A DNA stretch of 62,479 bases, counting the filler, from Globobulimina sp. (Eukaryota): the NCBI GenBank assembly GCA_003354225.1. It is 19 parts of 19 records of this genome, joined end to end, with 100 filler letters (N's around TTAATTAATTAA, not from the genome) between each part and the next. Parts side by side here need not be neighbours in the genome. Positions count along the whole stretch, not along the records: positions 13,187 to 16,381 come from PIVH01003447.1; 18 more parts are not named here. One strand, given 5' to 3'. Every line of letters starts with the position of its first letter. The stretch's first letter is position 1. A program made the translations under genes and the position numbers. The notes beneath the pieces were generated by a model. The model was not told the origin of the DNA and made no database searches. It worked only from the letters and a program-made list of their open reading frames with translations. Shown here one piece after another: positions 3,198-59,376 of the stretch.

Positions 3198-3297
3198 NNN
3201 NNNNNNNNNNNNNNNNNNNNNNNNNNNNNNNNNNNNNNNNNTTAATTAATTAANNNNNNNNNNNNNNNNNNNNNNNNNNNNNNNNNNNNNNNNNNNN
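3198..3297. other. Artificial contig linker (44 N + TTAATTAATTAA + 44 N), first of 18
   Basis: Identical 100-nt spacers start at 3198, 6495, 9791, 13087, 16382, 19677, 22972, 26267, 29561, 32855, 36148, 39441, 42734, 46026, 49317, 52608, 55899 and 59190. The 12-mer gives stops in all six frames. Confidence 0.99.
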
Positions 3298-6132: not shown

Positions 6133-6675
6133 GTTTCAGTTACACACAAGTTTAACAAAAACGGGAAAAAAAACGTAAACCTGTAAAAAGCGAACAAGCG
6201 CAATAAACTGCACCCATGGTTTAAACAGACAAAAAAGAAGCGTAATTGTCTTAGAATCTTACCCCGACCGCGTTTAGATCCGTAGCACAATAATTTTTGA
6301 ATAATGGCATACGTTCAACCTGTTTGTACACAATTATGTTAATTGTGTTTCTGCTCTGTTATAATAATTATTGTTTACATTTGATTTTCATCGAACAACA
6401 ACCCTTTCCAAAATATCGCAAAATTATTATGTAAAAGAACTAGTATTAGCTGGATTTGATAGATCACTAAAAACAAAGTTCAAATATATATATANNNNNN
6501 NNNNNNNNNNNNNNNNNNNNNNNNNNNNNNNNNNNNNNTTAATTAATTAANNNNNNNNNNNNNNNNNNNNNNNNNNNNNNNNNNNNNNNNNNNNCCTCTG
6601 GAAAAAACTAAAAACTTTGTTCGTAGGTGAAGACTACAGGGAAACGCTTTAAGTAATCTGTAAGCGTTCAAAGGT

Positions 6676-13086: not shown

Positions 13087-13629
13087 NNNNNNNNNNNNNN
13101 NNNNNNNNNNNNNNNNNNNNNNNNNNNNNNTTAATTAATTAANNNNNNNNNNNNNNNNNNNNNNNNNNNNNNNNNNNNNNNNNNNNCTGGTCTTTTTATG
13201 TTCTTGTCTTTTTAAAAATGTGTAAAAAATGTGTTTTACTGAAAATGTCTGTATTTTCATGTCAATTTGGAGATTGGAGAATCTTTGATTTGATTGTTAT
13301 CTTCGATTTGCCAGCACAAAACGATTTTGGATTGCTTTATTCCATCAATAAGTTGCGGTAAGGAAAACCATTTGATAAATTTTCAACTATTTTTTATTAT
13401 TTTTGTTGTTCGCTTTTGCTGGTGTTTGTTTAATTTTTCAGGATGGTCAAAATCCATGGAAACGATAATCATGGAAGAGGCAATCGTTGAGATGGTAATG
13501 CTAGCCAAAACAATGGTATTTCAATAAAACATTATCCCAAATGAATACATCAGTAAGTTGTATGAAACTTTTTGGTACCGTATAACTAAGACATTATGCC
13601 GAAATAGTGTTTTATTCACAACATACTTG

Positions 13630-14172
13630 TTAAAACCAATAAACAACTATCTGTTCGAGTTTTTGCACTTGATATTTAGTCAATGTTACATCTCCTACGC
13701 TAGCATACAACAATTCATTCTTATCTCCGAAACAAGTAGTTATGTCTTTATATTTCATAGCTTTGTAACATTTATCAATCTTTATGTTGTAGTTACTGCA
13801 AATGACTTTGTTTTGCTGTGGACACCAGAGCAAAAAATAGCGAAGTGTCTGAGCTTCAATTTGATTGTAACCATATACCTTGTTCGATAGTTGTAGGGTC
13901 ATCGAATGATAGCGTCGACTTTCAAGATATTCTTTGCACAATGTAGCTGTATTAGTGCCATTAGGGTCTAGCAAAATCTTACGTTTGTCATAACAAGTTC
14001 CATTCACCAAGTTAGGTGTAGAAACTGGATGGAAAATAAATTGAATCACAAATACCAAAATCAGCATGCATAGCAGACTACAATATTTGCAATCAATTTT
14101 TGACAGATTTTCTACTGTCTTTTTCTTCGTTTTTGGATTAAGAGCTTGAACCACATCCACCGGCTCCATCAT
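13630..14172 (-). CDS. Small single-TM, Cys-rich protein downstream of the pPolB
   Basis: 180-aa intronless ORF with hydrophobic helix LLCMLILVFVIQFIF and several Cys. Same strand as the polymerase. Confidence 0.55.
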   Translation of the reverse strand: MMEPVDVVQALNPKTKKKTVENLSKIDCKYCSLLCMLILVFVIQFIFHPVSTPNLVNGTCYDKRKILLDPNGTNTATLCKEYLESRRYHSMTLQLSNKVYGYNQIEAQTLRYFLLWCPQQNKVICSNYNIKIDKCYKAMKYKDITTCFGDKNELLYASVGDVTLTKYQVQKLEQIVVYWF

Positions 14173-14339
14173 GAGGCTTATAGTTTACTGAATGACCGAC
14201 AACTCTAAGTTGATTTACTTATATACCTTTCTGTCAAAAGGAAAACTGTTATTTACACTCAAACTATTTTTGCTGAATTTATTTGATCAATTTAAAGTTT
14301 TTCTTACAAATAATACACTATCTAACAATGAATGTGTAA

Positions 14340-16381
14340 TCATATATTTTCAACTTCCTCCAATGATTCATCTAATGGTTCAGTAAAAATCAAATCAGGT
14401 GCTAACAATTTTCTTTTTATGTAGAAAGGTTGAAGCCCAATTCGTTTGGCTCTGATTGTATAGATTCCTGTTCTGTTTTTAACTGTACGAAATGAAACAT
14501 TTGTTGCTTCTACATGTTTTCCTTGGTACAGAGCTGCTTTGAATGTTTCAAATCGTAATATATCTGTGTTAGTTTTGGCTGAAACTCCCTTTGCAGCATG
14601 TTTCACTGTGTTTTCCGTTTCATCAGCCATTATGTAACATTTAGCGGATAGACCAATAAAACCTTTGGCCTGTTTTTCGACTTTGAAAAGCCCAGGCTGA
14701 CGCTTTGTGTAAGCTTCTCTTGCGGAGGAGCGATCGTCTACCAAATACTTGTACTTTTCTTGATTGTACTCATGTTGCAAGTGTGGATGAACTAACCTTT
14801 CTGGAATTGAATCACCCCAGCTTACAATAACACTGTCTGTATCCGATCCACATATCGCCAGTTTTGTATGATCGAAATATTTTAAAACAAAGCTGTGTAC
14901 AAATCTCAACAAATTCAACTTTGCAGCACCAAATACTGCTACTGCAATCTGTACAGGTAGATCATACTTTATCGATCTTGGTTTTAACTCAACTTCACAA
15001 TAATCACCACCCAATTCCAGATGGCTAACATAATGTGGGCCATTGATTATATTGTTCACTTCACTATCAGTTACTATTCGATACGTGTTTCGTTTTAAAG
15101 GATTGTATGCAAATTTACCCCATGCGCTTGCTCCTAAATGTTTTGACATGTTGGTCTTTACAGTGTTTCCTGTCCTGTCACCATCTCTGCGATCATTTGC
15201 GATTTTTGTTTCATATTCTTTAAATGGTTTTTGATTTGCTTGATATTGTATCACTTGATGGATTTTTGTTAATTTCACTCCAATTTCACAGAGATATTTA
15301 AGCAATGGTGTGTACATCAACACTTGCTTTCCTGTCATACAGGCCACGAGGTTTCGTCTTGGTTTCATGAACATTATCCCATTTTCATCACCTATTTTCA
15401 AAACTTCGTTGCTTATCATGTTGCGATTGATGTCGAGGTGTCGAATAATAGGTGGAAACATTTTTAGTTTCTCATAGTTTGGATGGTTTGGATCGCATTC
15501 CAGATCAACCAGTGCAAATCCAAATATCTCGCCTGATTTTAGTTTGTTGGCCATTGACTTTTCGCTGAGTTCATGAGTATTGTGTCCAAATCGTTTGGGA
15601 CCTAGCATCCAATTTTTAAGAAATTCTGTCAATTCACCACCCATGTTTAATTCTTCCAAGAATTCACATTCCTGTTTCACAATAAGATTTGCATGTTTTG
15701 ATCGCCATATTTCATTGCGTTTTTCTGTTTGCTTGCACATTTGATTGTATGTTTTTCCTGTCACTTTACTTATCTGCTCGCCATCGACATGACCAATGAT
15801 AGGACAGCTTGGTCGATCGCAACTATGAAATTCGCAACCATCAAATTCATAAATAGTGTCAAGTTCATGGCAGTATCCATCTGGTCGCATCTGCTGTCCA
15901 TGGTTGTAGAAAACATGTTCACCTCCATTCAATTTGTGTCTAATTACGAATTTCATTTTCGATGCCATGTAATCCATCCATTGCACAGCAGATGTTGCAC
16001 GTTTTTCTCCACACAGTTCTGGTTTAAATTTGCTATCTGCTTTTCTTACAAGGTATGGTCCTGCCGGCATTTCGGATGCCAAAGCTGCTAAATATTGACT
16101 GTTAGAATCTAGACTTTCAATCAACTCTGTTTTTGTTGAGGAGTCAGGACCGACTGTAGTGACACCTGCTTCTTGGTGGCGAGTAAAAATTTCAGCCAAC
16201 CCTCCAGTAATCCCTTTTAATCTGAATAAGTTCATAGTAACTTCATCGGGAAGTGTAAAATATATTTTTGGTGCAGTGGAAAGTAAATAAGGGACAGCGG
16301 CGGATTGAATTGTGCAATGGTTACTGAATAAATCAATCTTTCTATGATGCCATTGATTTTGGAGACATTCAACAGCAGGTA
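14340..16381 (-). mobile_element. Protein-primed family B DNA polymerase (Polinton/Maverick-like) with an inserted VSR-like nuclease, 5'-truncated
   Basis: Motif A DSNSQY, motif B KHLGASAWGK, motif C SDTDS, PGLFKVE, SAKCY and AKGV. The nuclease-like insert is PDGYC..TIYEFDGCEFHSC. The frame is open from 16379 and has no introns. Confidence 0.9.
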
Positions 16382-16481
16382 NNNNNNNNNNNNNNNNNNN
16401 NNNNNNNNNNNNNNNNNNNNNNNNNTTAATTAATTAANNNNNNNNNNNNNNNNNNNNNNNNNNNNNNNNNNNNNNNNNNNN

Positions 16482-39540: not shown

Positions 39541-42500
39541 ATTATTCTCCTCGATATCCGATACACGCAAGAATGCATTCTCGTTGTTCTTTGCATATAT
39601 TTCCATTTCCTCCGCTTTGATGTCAAACTGGATGCCATAAATCACCGATAACAATACACAAAAGACAGCCACGCAAACTAATATAGTCCAAGCCATTTTT
39701 TTATACCAATGTGGAAATGGATAGTTATAATTAAATAAAATTAACCGGATTTCGGAGGCTAAACCGGCCTTTTCAGAGGCATTCGCTTTTGTGTTTACAT
39801 AATGCATACATTTACGGACTAATTTCATGTCGGGGCGGCTGGTCTTCTTTAATTCTGCCATGGCACTCCAATACGTGGTGGATAGCCTCTTTTTTGTTAC
39901 ATCTGTGTCATGCATTTGTCCAGTTTGTTTTAAATATTCTTCATCTTTTTCCTCCAAATCAATATTATCCATATTATCCATAGTGTCCATAGTTATATTC
40001 TCCGTGGTGGACGGTATCGGATCAGAGGTTGAATCCGTGATTAATGGTTGATTAAATCCCGGATTTGTGGATCCAGAGCGTGATTTGGCAGATTTTACAA
40101 TTCTAGGTTTACTCCATTGAAATAATACTCGTATAATATAAACAGGGACGGTACCAATTAAACTAATCAGTGCAGAAGCCGTTAAATCGCCGATTGGCTT
40201 TCTGGTCGTTTGATTGCCATAAAAAATTGCGTCCGCCATCATAATGCAATACATGTACAATAAAAATAAACCAATTCGTTGTTTGGTACTAAAGTTGGTT
40301 CCATCTGTACGTTGAAACACGGATAATACGGTATGATCATTTTTGAGATAGGTTCGAAATAAATTTACGGACAATAAACAATAATATTTTCCGGTTTTTG
40401 ATTTCCTTTTAACGTTAAAACCAGCGGTATTACGGTGAGAGACATGACTTGTTTGCGTTGGTGATATAAATAATGGTGAATTATTTACAAATTCACTATC
40501 TTCCGCAGCCATATTCTCCTTTAAATCTTGTTTAATATGTTCAATTTTGGTATACCATCTGTCAATTTGTTGAATTTCATGCCATTGTTGGTGTTTATGT
40601 AAATATTGATCGCGGAATTCTTTATAAATAATATCTTCAAAGGCAATGATAGGTTTATCGGCATTATTATTTGGTACACAGATACAAGCCACGACTAAGA
40701 CCACCACAATCATCAACATGGTGACCCAGGTGGTTGGATGTTTGCCGATATTGGCTTTCGACAATATTCGTAAATCTGCAGTGCTCAATAATTGCGCTTT
40801 GGGGTCAAAATCTTCCGCCGACACTTTAAAAGTTGTTAAATGCGTACAGGCACAAATCACACTGTCCACATCAACATCATACACCACACAGCCTGTCCCA
40901 TTCCATTCCGATTCCATTTTATCCCAAAATATGCATTTTGGATACGAAATACCGGAGGTATTGTACCAATCGCCTGTAATCGCAGCATCAAACACATTAG
41001 AATCACCATTGGCATTCACATATTTGGACGGCAAATTCATAGATATAAAATAGGGGAAACAACTATCATTGGTTTCAAATACACGCGTACCATCGGCAGA
41101 GAATAAATCAATGGCGACCTCATCATCCACATCGATCTTGGTAATTATACATTTTATGCTCTCTTGACTGGTAGCCGCATTATTCGGTGGTATGGTGACA
41201 GAAACACTGCCAAACTCACATACCTCGTCTTTATGGATTAGCGAGCCCTGAGTCTGCGACCCCTCCCTTACATGGATGATCACTTCGCCGTGCCAGGTGC
41301 CCGTTAATTCCACCTCCATAATGGATTGCACATTATCGATAAGTTGCAGTCTATCTGCAGCTGTGAAATTCGACACATTCAATAAATTGGTAGCCACACT
41401 GTCGGCAATGCCACCTACTTTTTGCACAGTTTCTGCCAACACACCAGTTTCATACTCGACCTCGCTATCCAAGAGCTCCAAGGTCGTGTTTAATACGGCC
41501 GGCAACCACTCGCTACTAATTTGCAATGCAAGCTCAGTATCCACAAATGTGGGATCAGAGGTTAATAAATCCACCAATGCAACATTGGCGGTAATGCCCT
41601 CTAAGGTCGTATTGGCATTGTCCGTATCTAAGTTAGTATTACTCATAATAGTTTGCAATGCATTTGCAATTTCTTGTGCGCCATCTTCGCCGGATGGCAC
41701 TTGATCCTCTGCCACCATGCTCGTCAGCAAACTGTAGGCAGCAATCACATCTTCGTTATTTGCGGAATGCAGATTGGACACAATGTCGGTCCATAATTGC
41801 TGCGGTGTAGTAGACGCCAAAATAGTCGTTAAATTATCCCAAGAAGCTGTAAAATTAACAAAGAAGACAGGAAAGCATTCCTCATACCTCGTACCAATGG
41901 CAGTTCTGGCGCGGACCAATGCGATTAATGAGTCAGTGGATAAGGATTGGGTGCCCACAATGGTATCATTGAACTCTTCCTGTCGGACATATTTATCTGG
42001 AGCTAATAATACGTCATTCATTAATATATTAAATTGGATCTCATTTCGTATTACGCAGGCACCACAACTGTCTGAACCACGATCAATTCGACCAATACTC
42101 GCAAAATTTGGACAATCTTTGCATTTATAGCCATCACAGCGAATCTCAAATTTACCAAATGCCATCGAGGAATGCTGGGTCACGCGACATCCGGTGGGTA
42201 GTCCTATGGCGCTGGTCTTTATTGGATCGGTGCTCCATGGTTCAATGTGCATAAAATTAAACGTAAAATCTTGTGCATGCGTAGTAACACCACTATATAT
42301 TTTTATATGTTGCAATAGTATACACAAACAACACGCAATTTCGCTAAAAAAGAAAAGAGAAAAAAAACACAAACAACATGCACATGAACATGGACAAAAC
42401 TTGGTGGCAATTAAAGTAATAACAGAGGAATGATTATAGCCAAATATCCACGGTTCGGAGGTGTCAACACAATATCCATTATGTAAGGTTCTATGAGAAG

Positions 42501-42733
42501 GGATCAATAACTGTGCCACTGTAACTTGTTGTACATTATCTGGCATATTTCCACAGGCTCTCCCTAGACACGCACAGCCGGTCCTCGTCTTCAAGGCAGT
42601 ATCAAACTTGCTGTTAATCGTAGCCATATCATCGCCATCAATCGCAAATGTGATATTCAAGCTATCATCGATAATATATCCCAACCCTTCTGTAATCACA
42701 ATGGAGATATGATTATTATTCATTATTTCAAGA
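39541..42733 (-). CDS. Polycystin-1 (PKD1/REJ)-like GPS/GAIN receptor, both ends truncated
   Basis: GPS motif CIFWD..W...GC...CACTHLTTF, then TM1, HTVLSVFQR...FSTKQR and YGIQF. Probable in-frame intron at 42293-42400. Confidence 0.8.
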
Positions 42734-59189: not shown

Positions 59190-59376
59190 NNNNNNNNNNN
59201 NNNNNNNNNNNNNNNNNNNNNNNNNNNNNNNNNTTAATTAATTAANNNNNNNNNNNNNNNNNNNNNNNNNNNNNNNNNNNNNNNNNNNNAATTCCGTACT
59301 TGCATTGCTTTTTCGTTGTTGAGTGCAAGGATGTTTTACGATTTTCTTTCATTTTATCTATGTTTTTACCGGTTGC

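What the first reader, a model, noticed from the sequence alone, without database searches (positions are those of the whole stretch)
14340..16381. Polinton-like protein-primed PolB with an internal nuclease and rewritten catalytic motifs
Seen: a VSR/PD-(D/E)xK-like insert (RPDGYC..IYEFDGCEFH) lies between motifs A and B. Motif A is DSNSQY (usually DxNSLY), motif B is KHLGASAWGK (usually KxxxNSxYGK, so N>A and Y>W) and motif C is GSDTDS. The catalytic Asps, KxY and the frame (about 680 codons) are intact. Established: such nuclease-bearing pPolBs occur in some Polintons and related viruses. Inference: a deeply divergent Polinton-like virus or endogenous element whose dNTP-binding helix, and perhaps fidelity or specificity, is altered.
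Basis: partly seen in the sequence, partly recalled or inferred. Interest (0 to 1): 0.72.

Follow-up and report, generated by a model that had tools for sequence, protein, structure and literature searches.

The report
Polinton polymerase fragment with altered pocket
This is the back half of the DNA polymerase gene of a Polinton/Maverick-type virus-like transposon, of the known kind that carries a built-in nuclease, and its small lineage has replaced four normally conserved residues around the nucleotide-binding pocket and kept them under selection.

Summary
On the minus strand, 14340-16381 is a 679-codon open frame with DSNSQY, KHLGASAWGK, GSDTDS, SAKCY and a VSR-like insert. Two things were missed. 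First, the window is a chain of 19 unrelated ~3.2-kb contigs joined by N/TTAATTAATTAA linkers. The frame therefore runs off a contig end and is only the C-terminal ~46% of a ~1480-aa protein, and its neighbours are not context. Second, the VSR insert is the published hallmark of group-I Maverick/Polinton pPolBs.

The odd motifs are not private. Relatives at 97, 88 and 65% identity all keep DSNSQY and KH[LM]GASAWGKF, and a 40% relative keeps DSNSQY with KTFGSTCYG. Against the 65% relative pN is 0.21 and pS 0.80. Among 149 other family members, Q, A and W never occur at these positions. They map to phi29 L253, L384, N387 and Y390.

Catalytic Asps, Lys, the steric-gate Tyr and KxY are intact. The fold matches phi29 polymerase (Z 22.8) and Vsr (Z 7.4). 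The 65% relative sits beside an rve integrase.

Verdict: a real Polinton pPolB from a small clade with a remodelled pocket. Biochemical effect untested. Moderate interest.

The parts
13187..16381 (.). One 3195-bp contig. This is the only real genomic context of the finding. It is flanked by artificial 100-nt linkers at 13087-13186 and 16382-16481.
   Evidence: N runs and TTAATTAATTAA linkers. Table of 19 contigs, 3197 down to 3190 bp.
14340..16381 (-). 3' part of a pPolB gene: 679 codons plus stop (14340-14342), open at the contig end. It corresponds to residues ~804-1482 of the 97%-identical relative P0160.
16092..16109 (-). Motif A, DSNSQY. D91 (catalytic) and Y96 (steric gate) are kept. Q95 replaces the Leu that equals phi29 L253.
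15606..16010 (-). VSR-like PD-(D/E)xK nuclease core (residues ~124-258) inserted between motifs A and B. D167, G181, C182, H185, C187 and E237-C238 are kept.
   Evidence: Profile hits to 1vsr/1cw0/1odg at E ~3e-5. VIA-align matches at model residues 124-258, with 1cw0_A at Z 7.4. Column tallies.
15114..15143 (-). Motif B, KHLGASAWGK. K413 and G421 are kept. H414, A417 and W420 replace residues equal to phi29 L384, N387 and Y390.
14832..14843 (-). Motif C, DTDS (D513, D515).
14634..14642 (-). KxY motif (K580-C-Y582).
13630..14172 (-). Downstream co-oriented ORF (180 aa from the ATG, 184 stop-to-stop). It has a Lys-rich N-terminus, one hydrophobic helix and a Cys-rich C-terminal part. Function unknown. 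It is conserved next to the same polymerase lineage.
   Evidence: 6 homologues at 55-91% identity. P0154 and P0155 share source and contig length (7435, 5914) with P0160 and P0161. No Pfam hit and no Atlas hit.

Best explanation
[quoted passage not shown] The contig end cuts it.

The full protein, seen in relatives of 1376-1482 aa, adds an N-terminal region and a 3'-5' exonuclease domain. It would replicate the linear element by protein-primed, strand-displacing synthesis (inferred from the phi29-like fold and the family).

Its small clade has five sequences among those I could see. In it, four residues that line the nascent-base-pair/dNTP pocket are replaced: motif A Leu to Gln, motif B Leu to His (Thr in P0002), Asn to Ala (Ser in P0002), and Tyr to Trp (Tyr kept in P0002). 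The substitutions are held by purifying selection while every catalytic residue is kept.

My reading is that the enzyme is active and that the four changes form a mutually compensating remodelling of the pocket. Any shift in fidelity or nucleotide selection is probably modest and is untested. The VSR-like domain keeps its metal and Zn ligands and is probably a working nicking nuclease acting in cis. Its role, perhaps end processing or excision, is an inference held with low confidence.
For: Family and fold:
- PF03175 is above its cut-off.
- HMMER finds 3107 homologues at E<=1e-3.
- The AF2 model has pLDDT 89.5 and pTM 0.87.
- phi29 polymerase takes the top nine Foldseek rows.
- VIA-align gives Z 22.8 to phi29, against 10.9 for the next polymerase.

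VSR insert:
- The profile of A1 hits only Vsr entries in the PDB.
- Z is 7.4 to 1cw0_A over 120 aligned residues.
- 131 of 149 other family members carry the insert's Asp column.
- The insert is published as the group-I Maverick marker (passages read).

Not private, and under selection:
- P0160 (97%), P0161 (88%) and P0005 (65%) are intact at 1376-1482 aa and keep DSNSQY, KH[LM]GASAWGKF, DTDS and SAKCY.
- Against L001, over 675 codons, pN is 0.214 and pS 0.804.
- Identity by codon position is 0.74/0.81/0.44, and 231 of 446 identical residues use different codons.
- Motif A has 7 synonymous differences in 11 codons. Motif B has 3, including the Ala417 codon.

Rarity among the 149 other members:
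- Motif A position: L 133, M 9, E 1, gap 6.
- Motif B K+1: L 117, T 11.
- Motif B Asn position: N 144, C 3, Q 1, T 1.
- Motif B Tyr position: Y 117, F 24, I 5, V 3.

Mapping and literature:
- The positions map to phi29 L253, L384, N387 and Y390 by alignment with the phi29 gene-2 product.
- The literature places these positions in the dNTP/nascent-pair pocket (passages read in PMC3564110, PMC3799440 and PMC1976434).

Mobile-element context:
- An rve integrase (PF00665, E 3.5e-8) is divergently adjacent to the 65% relative.
- In run X1, 60 contig pieces lie on the stretch: 28 at >=99%, 13 at 95-99%, 5 at 90-95% and 14 under 90% identity.
- Overlapping pieces there have 5 of 379 and 82 of 644 differences, so there are several diverged copies.

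Clade: support is 100 both with and without P0002.
Against: - Only the C-terminal half is in the window. Whether this copy has an intact N-terminus cannot be seen, and no other piece of it is in the window.
- No capsid, ATPase, protease, TIR or integrase is seen for the window's own copy.
- Integrase adjacency is shown only for the 65% relative.
- dS is saturated, so omega is not a number, only pN much smaller than pS.
- Asn and Tyr of motif B are treated as essential or invariant in characterised family-B enzymes, so reduced activity is possible.
- No activity, expression or priming data exist.
- I saw only the best 150 of 3107 HMMER hits, so W, A or Q could occur elsewhere in the family.
- X1 may be the sample the window was assembled from, so it is not independent support.
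Confidence: 0.72

Rival explanations
1. Changed function. The remodelled pocket (Gln/His/Ala/Trp for Leu/Leu/Asn/Tyr) gives this clade's polymerase a really different substrate choice or fidelity. Examples would be use of a modified dNTP, unusual lesion bypass or a mutator-like error rate, rather than a neutral compensated state.
For: All four changed positions are known fidelity or dNTP-contact positions in phi29 and RB69. They changed together on one long stem branch (0.535 against a median of 0.094) and then stayed fixed across 65-97% identity. W, A and Q were not seen at these positions in 149 other members.
Against: There are no biochemical data. The steric-gate Tyr, the catalytic Asps and the Lys are canonical, so ordinary dNTP chemistry is expected. 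P0002 has an intermediate state (Q, T, S, Y), which fits gradual compensated drift. Other members tolerate C, T or Q at the Asn position and F, I or V at the Tyr position, so the family is generally lax here.
Confidence: 0.13
2. Crippled or non-replicative protein: a decaying copy, or a domesticated host gene that no longer polymerises.
For: The motif B Asn and Tyr, described as invariant or required, are lost. The window holds only a fragment. Pfam matches only residues 347-453.
Against: The 679-codon frame is open at P~1e-23. Three full-length relatives are intact. pN is 0.21 against pS 0.80, with synonymous changes inside the motifs. All catalytic residues are kept. Several diverged copies exist in one run and the relative has an integrase neighbour, which fits an active mobile family rather than one domesticated locus.
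Confidence: 0.08
3. Not endogenous. The contig comes from a free Polinton-like virus, or from another organism present in the sequenced sample, and not from the genome that supplies the other contigs.
For: The contig has no recognisable host flank. Its GC of 0.357 is above most of the other contigs, though their range is 0.276-0.418. 85-99% identical pieces occur in marine and marine-sediment metagenomes from two studies.
Against: Its GC lies within the spread of the other contigs. Many diverged copies in one organism-labelled run are typical of an endogenous repeat family. The relative carries an integrase. None of this is decisive.
Confidence: 0.15

Closest known systems
Group-I Maverick/Polinton pPolB with VSR insertion (Kapitonov and Jurka 2006, as cited in PMC10328495), and the VSR-bearing pPolB2 of marine nematode and mollusc Polintons (PMC10748475)
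   Same: A protein-primed PolB with a ~140-aa VSR-like nuclease inserted in the polymerase half. An rve integrase sits in the same element in the 65% relative. The family is widespread in eukaryotes. Pieces of this lineage turn up in marine metagenomes.
   Different: The clade replaces the motif A Leu and the motif B Leu, Asn and Tyr. None of 149 other members shows Q, A or W there. I could not place it on the published pPolB1/pPolB2 trees because no labelled references were on hand.
Bacteriophage phi29 DNA polymerase (PDB 1XHX, 2EX3, 2PYJ)
   Same: It is the best structural match (Z 22.8, 369 residues aligned, rmsd 3.6, model 1-650 to chain 171-575; Foldseek E 3.7e-9). Motif A, B, C and KxY align letter for letter at the catalytic residues.
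   Different: Sequence identity is 10-16%. phi29 has no VSR insert. phi29 has L253, L384, N387 and Y390 where this protein has Q, H, A and W. Use of a terminal protein is not shown here.
E. coli Vsr endonuclease (PDB 1VSR, 1CW0, 1ODG)
   Same: The family profile aligns its GC..H..C block and its 'weC' block to Vsr (E ~3e-5). The fold match is Z 7.4.
   Different: Here it is a domain inside a polymerase. The position aligned to the His just before the Gly-Cys of the Vsr block is Asp in this clade, and it is variable in the family: H 50, N 24, D 16, L 14, Q 11. T:G mismatch specificity is not implied.
RB69 gp43 and Pol delta pocket mutants (L415, L561, N564, Y567; L612)
   Same: The four substituted positions are those at which engineered changes alter base selection and fidelity (passages read).
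   Different: Those are laboratory mutants of RNA/DNA-primed replicases. This is a natural, selected combination in a protein-primed enzyme, with different replacement residues.

Membership tests
[quoted passage not shown] | Sequence match to PF03175 above the gathering score | tested here: met
   33.5 bits against a cut-off of 25.8, E 2.8e-8. Also met in P0160, P0161 and P0005.
[quoted passage not shown] | Catalytic Asp of motif A, the two Asp of motif C (DTDS), the Lys of motif B and the KxY motif | tested here: met
   D91, D513/D515, K413 and K580/Y582 align to the phi29 motif residues.
[quoted passage not shown] | Canonical motif B Kx3NSxYG and motif A Dx2SLY | tested here: not met
   Motif B is KHLGASAWG (N to A, Y to W) and motif A is DSNSQY (L to Q). 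These are conserved substrate-pocket residues, not the catalytic ones, so I still file the protein in the family.
[quoted passage not shown] | phi29-like fold of palm/TPR1/fingers/TPR2/thumb | tested here: met
   VIA-align Z 22.8 to 1xhx_A against 10.9 for the best other PolB. Foldseek ranks 1-9 are all phi29. TPR2 was not inspected on its own.
[quoted passage not shown] | 3'-5' exonuclease domain (Exo I-III) | tested here: inconclusive
   Absent from the window because the contig ends. In P0160 and P0161 I read DxE-, Nx3YD- and Yx3D-like strings by eye. No formal test was made.
[quoted passage not shown] | Priming from a terminal protein | not testable with these tools
   No terminal-protein gene or element ends are on the contig.
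Polinton/Maverick element | pPolB together with a retrovirus-like (rve) integrase | tested here: inconclusive
   The window contig has pPolB only. The 65% relative L001 has an rve integrase (PF00665, E 3.5e-8, 34.1 bits against 32.6) divergently adjacent.
Polinton/Maverick element | Capsid module: double jelly-roll MCP, penton, A32-like ATPase, adenain-like protease | tested here: inconclusive
   None is on the 3.2-kb contig or elsewhere in the window. The L001 223-aa partial ORF gave no Pfam hit, only a weak Atlas lead (one cluster, 18% of whose members carry Adeno_Penton_B), and an unusable fold (pLDDT 33).
Polinton/Maverick element | Terminal inverted repeats and target-site duplication | not testable with these tools
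   The element ends are not on the contig.
Vsr-like (PD-(D/E)xK) endonuclease domain | Sequence-profile similarity to Vsr | tested here: met
   The A1 profile hits 1odg, 1vsr and 1cw0 at E 3.3e-5 to 4.3e-5, and these are its only PDB hits. Pfam Vsr (PF03852) matches 4 of 35 single members weakly, best E 0.0065. The window's own protein is not among them.
Vsr-like (PD-(D/E)xK) endonuclease domain | Restriction-endonuclease-like fold | tested here: met
   Model residues 124-258 match many PD-(D/E)xK nucleases at Z 4.5-8.1, and 1cw0_A at Z 7.4 with 120 aligned residues. These Z values are in the range the tool calls middling. The whole model was searched, not the isolated domain.
Vsr-like (PD-(D/E)xK) endonuclease domain | Conserved Asp, GC..H block and Cys ligands | tested here: met
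   D167, G181, C182, H185, C187 and C238 sit in columns conserved in 122-131 of 149 other members.
Vsr-like (PD-(D/E)xK) endonuclease domain | Nuclease activity | not testable with these tools
   Needs an enzyme assay.

The most novel reading that the evidence does not exclude
A natural lineage of protein-primed replicases has rebuilt the nascent-base-pair pocket, with Gln, His, Ala and Trp in place of the near-universal Leu, Leu, Asn and Tyr. It has thereby acquired a different nucleotide choice or error spectrum, for instance replication of an element genome that carries a modified base, or deliberately low fidelity.
Probability: 0.12. Interest if true: 0.75.

Novelty: new variant of a known kind. 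Interest (0 to 1): 0.4.

Why it matters
The motif B Tyr and Asn and the motif A Leu are textbook fidelity determinants of family-B polymerases, and the Tyr is called invariant (PMC1976434). This clade has lost three of them plus the neighbouring Leu. It still shows clear purifying selection and intact catalytic residues. That makes it a ready-made natural experiment on how much of the pocket can be rebuilt. It would also be a candidate source of a strand-displacing polymerase with different substrate tolerance.

For Polinton biology it adds a small, well-separated VSR-bearing pPolB clade. The clade has a conserved downstream membrane-protein gene and shows traces in marine metagenomes.

The nuclease insert itself, and the identification as a Polinton polymerase, are ordinary.

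Tried and rejected
- Window neighbours as context: rejected. The window is 19 unrelated contigs. Ten of their long ORFs are ordinary eukaryotic genes or unknown: GPS, Pkinase, MFS_1, Myb and PDEase_I in 5 of 10, no Pfam hit in the other 5.
- tblastn of P0005, P0002, the L001 integrase and two L001 ORFs against the window hit only this contig.
- No whole genome is held for the window.
- A viral-contig scan with P0005 found 51 pattern matches but no relative.
- phmmer of P0002 against the PDB gave nothing meaningful (E 0.12 to a methyltransferase).
- The downstream 184-aa ORF had no Pfam hit and no usable Atlas hit.
- L001 223-aa partial ORF: no Pfam hit. The Atlas gave only unnamed clusters plus one cluster in which 18% of members carry Adeno_Penton_B, which is a lead only. 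The single-sequence AF2 model had pLDDT 33.1 and was not searched.
- OTU-like string DGLCLFRCL in the N-terminus of the relatives: the likeness to OTU proteases is recalled. Pfam at E<=5 gave no OTU hit.
- Expression: no RNA holder listed. X5 is only guessed to be RNA and holds three 151-nt pieces, so it is not used as evidence.
- Parts of the stretch without cover in X2, X3 and X5 say nothing.
- The listing of cluster members gave no accessions or names. 'Same contig' for P0160/P0154 and for P0161/P0155 rests on identical source and contig length only.
- Earlier findings of the scan: three look-ups, nothing held.
- Literature: searches for Polinton + motif B + protein-primed + very short patch, and for Y567W, Y390W, N387A, N564A, L253Q and L415Q, found no paper on these substitutions in a polymerase. 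The library lacks most subscription journals, and supplements were closed.
- A formal dN/dS could not be computed because pS of 0.80 is beyond the Jukes-Cantor limit.
Full report
**1. What is in the sequence**

On the minus strand, window 14340-16381 holds one open frame of 679 sense codons ending in a stop at 14340-14342.
- DSNSQY, residues 91-96
- RPDGYC and IYEFDGCEFH, residues 165-187
- KHLGASAWGK, residues 413-422
- GSDTDS, residues 511-516
- SAKCY, residues 578-582

At the contig's base composition a stop is expected at 7.5% of codons. That gives P of about 1e-23 for 679 open codons, and 300 shuffles of the contig gave at most 169.

**2. The window is a chain of contigs, and the gene is a fragment**

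Just upstream of the frame the sequence reads 44 N, TTAATTAATTAA, 44 N. The same 100-nt linker occurs 18 times. It divides the window into 19 pieces of 3197 down to 3190 bp, in descending order.

The true context is therefore one 3195-bp contig, 13187-16381, and the frame runs off its end. The 631-aa ORF from the first ATG is an artefact of that cut.

The other contigs encode ordinary eukaryotic genes. GPS motif, protein kinase, MFS, Myb and PDEase_I were found in 5 of 10 long ORFs scanned, and 5 had no Pfam hit. None holds another piece of this element.

**3. Family**

Pfam PF03175 (DNA polymerase type B, organellar and viral) matches above its cut-off (33.5 against 25.8 bits). HMMER against 1.84 billion representatives found 3107 homologues at E<=1e-3 and 260 at E<=1e-30. 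I could see only the best 150.

An AF2 model built on a 35-row alignment is confident (pLDDT 89.5, pTM 0.87). Foldseek ranks phi29 DNA polymerase chains 1 to 9 (best E 3.7e-9). VIA-align against 48,161 chains gives phi29 1xhx_A Z 22.8 (369 aligned, rmsd 3.6), well above the next polymerase at 10.9. This is a protein-primed-type PolB.

**4. The internal nuclease**

The profile of the alignment hits only three PDB sequences, all Vsr endonuclease (1odg, 1vsr, 1cw0; E 3.3e-5 to 4.3e-5). The family's GC..H..C and 'weC' blocks align to Vsr's.

Model residues 124-258 match many PD-(D/E)xK nucleases. 1cw0_A scores Z 7.4 over 120 residues. That is a middling Z, from a whole-model search rather than an isolated domain.

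The Asp, Gly-Cys, His and Cys columns are kept in the window's protein and in 122-131 of 149 other members.

This insert is not new. Passages I read state that group-I Mavericks are distinguished by a ~140-aa VSR-like insertion (PMC10328495, citing Kapitonov and Jurka 2006). They also state that the pPolB2 of marine nematode and mollusc Polintons shares a VSR domain (PMC10748475). I did not read Kapitonov and Jurka itself.

**5. Close relatives and the altered motifs**

A search among longer proteins found three relatives:
- P0160: 1482 aa, 97% identity
- P0161: 1480 aa, 88% identity
- P0005: 1376 aa, 65% identity

The near-length search found P0002 (1166 aa, 39-41% identity). The window's frame aligns to the last ~680 residues of each, so about 800 residues are missing here.

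P0160, P0161 and P0005 all keep DSNSQY, KH[LM]GASAWGKF, DTDS and SAKCY. P0002 keeps DSNSQY but has KTFGSTCYG.

I aligned 154 sequences: the window, the 150 listed HMMER hits, P0003, P0160 and P0161. P0004 was left out. The 149 sequences outside the clade show the following:

| Position | Clade | 149 others |
|---|---|---|
| Motif A Leu | Q in 5 of 5 | L 133, M 9, E 1, gap 6 |
| Motif B residue after the Lys | H x4, T x1 | L 117, T 11, others 21 |
| Motif B Asn | A x4, S x1 | N 144, C 3, Q 1, T 1 |
| Motif B Tyr | W x4, Y x1 | Y 117, F 24, I 5, V 3 |

Aligning the phi29 gene-2 product (fetched) maps these positions to phi29 L253, L384, N387 and Y390 in the classical numbering. It maps D91, Y96, K413, D513, D515, K580 and Y582 to the phi29 catalytic, steric-gate and KxY residues.

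Passages read in three papers place these positions in the dNTP/nascent-base-pair pocket:
- The motif B Tyr is called invariant in family B, and Y390F and Y390S change insertion and extension preferences (PMC1976434).
- In RB69, K560 and N564 bind the triphosphate, Y567 senses the minor groove, and L561A is a mutator (PMC3564110).
- L415, which equals phi29 L253 and Pol delta L612, controls fidelity (PMC3799440).

**6. Selection**

L001 is the DNA of P0005. Against it, 675 aligned codons give pN 0.214 and pS 0.804, which is saturated, so no dS or omega could be computed. Identity by codon position is 0.74/0.81/0.44, and 231 of 446 identical residues use different codons.

Inside motif A, 7 of 11 codons differ synonymously. 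Inside motif B, 3 do, including the Ala417 codon. The altered motifs are therefore maintained, not decaying.

**7. Phylogeny**

I built a FastTree on 475 columns. The VSR columns were excluded, and 5 of 154 rows were dropped for being under 70% filled.

The window groups with P0160, P0161 and P0005 at support 100 (stem 0.43). With P0002 added, support is again 100 (stem 0.535, one of the four longest internal branches; median 0.094). Root-to-tip length is unremarkable at 1.62 against a median of 1.45.

The supports are SH-like values only, and the root is at the midpoint.

**8. Mobile-element context**

On L001 an rve integrase (PF00665, E 3.5e-8, 34.1 against 32.6 bits) lies divergently upstream of the polymerase.

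In the window contig a conserved 180-aa membrane/Cys-rich ORF follows the polymerase. Its 91% and 68% homologues share source and contig length with P0160 and P0161, so the pair is probably conserved. That is an inference.

In run X1, 60 contig pieces lie on the stretch at mixed identities: 28 at >=99%, 13 at 95-99%, 5 at 90-95% and 14 under 90%. Overlapping pieces differ by 5 of 379 and 82 of 644 letters. This indicates several diverged copies, although X1 may be the source sample.

Marine and marine-sediment metagenomes from two studies hold pieces that are 85-99% identical.

No capsid, ATPase, protease or TIR could be seen because all the contigs are short.

**9. Interpretation**

Shown:
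- It is a fragment of a VSR-bearing, phi29-like pPolB.
- It belongs to a small, well-supported clade.
- Four pocket residues are replaced and conserved under purifying selection.
- The catalytic residues are intact.

Inferred:
- It belongs to a Polinton/Maverick, from the integrase in a relative and the multi-copy signal.
- It is active.
- The four changes compensate for one another.
- Any change in fidelity or substrate choice.
- Any role for the nuclease.

The rivals are scored in their own sections: a changed substrate choice, a crippled or domesticated protein, and an exogenous virus or contaminant.

**10. Novelty**

The element type and the nuclease insert are known. I found the Q/H/A/W pocket nowhere among the 149 other members. 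I also found it in no paper in the searches. The library is incomplete, supplements were closed, and 2957 of 3107 homologues were not inspected. I rate it a new variant of a known kind, of moderate interest.

Noticed in passing
window 1-62479 (linkers at 3198-3297, 6495-6594, and so on to 59190-59289): The window is 19 contigs of 3197 down to 3190 bp, in descending length order. They are joined by 18 identical 100-nt linkers (44 N, TTAATTAATTAA, 44 N). Adjacent 'genes' across linkers are therefore unrelated, and ORFs that abut a linker are contig-truncated.
   Followed up: yes
window 13630-14172 (-): A small conserved ORF lies 155 nt downstream of the polymerase stop. It has a Lys-rich N-terminus, one hydrophobic helix and a Cys-rich remainder. 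Six homologues of 117-181 aa share 55-91% identity, two of them apparently on the contigs of the 97% and 88% polymerase relatives. No family match was found.
   Followed up: partly
L001 742-1908 (-) and L001 1-669 (-): The 65% relative's contig carries an rve integrase divergent from the polymerase. Beyond it lies a 223-aa partial ORF of unknown family with a faint penton-like lead from the Atlas. A GC-rich (0.475) spacer separates integrase and polymerase.
   Followed up: partly
P0160/P0161/P0005 N-terminal halves (not in the window): Full-length relatives have a long N-terminal extension. It includes acidic Ser/Glu/Asp repeats and a DGLCLFRCL string that I recall as OTU-protease-like. Pfam gave no support.
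   Followed up: partly
P0003 (823 aa) and other family members: P0003 lacks the VSR insert and instead has a Cys/His-rich, HNH-looking segment upstream of motif A. This matches the published HNH-bearing pPolB2 class. 18 of 149 members lack the VSR Asp column.
   Followed up: no
P0162 (1796 aa) and 2 of 35 members of alignment A1: Some pPolBs of this family carry a NADAR domain (PF08719, best E 3.7e-9), a fusion I did not pursue.
   Followed up: no
window 39541-42733 (-): An entire 3193-bp contig is one open frame, part of a 1094-aa stop-to-stop ORF that reads through the linker Ns. It has a GPS (GPCR proteolysis site) motif at E 6.3e-9. Nearly every contig in the window carries a long intron-free ORF.
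   Followed up: no
window 13187-16381 in runs X2, X3: Pieces 85-99% identical to the contig occur in marine and marine-sediment metagenomes from two studies. This hints that the host or element lineage is marine.
   Followed up: partly
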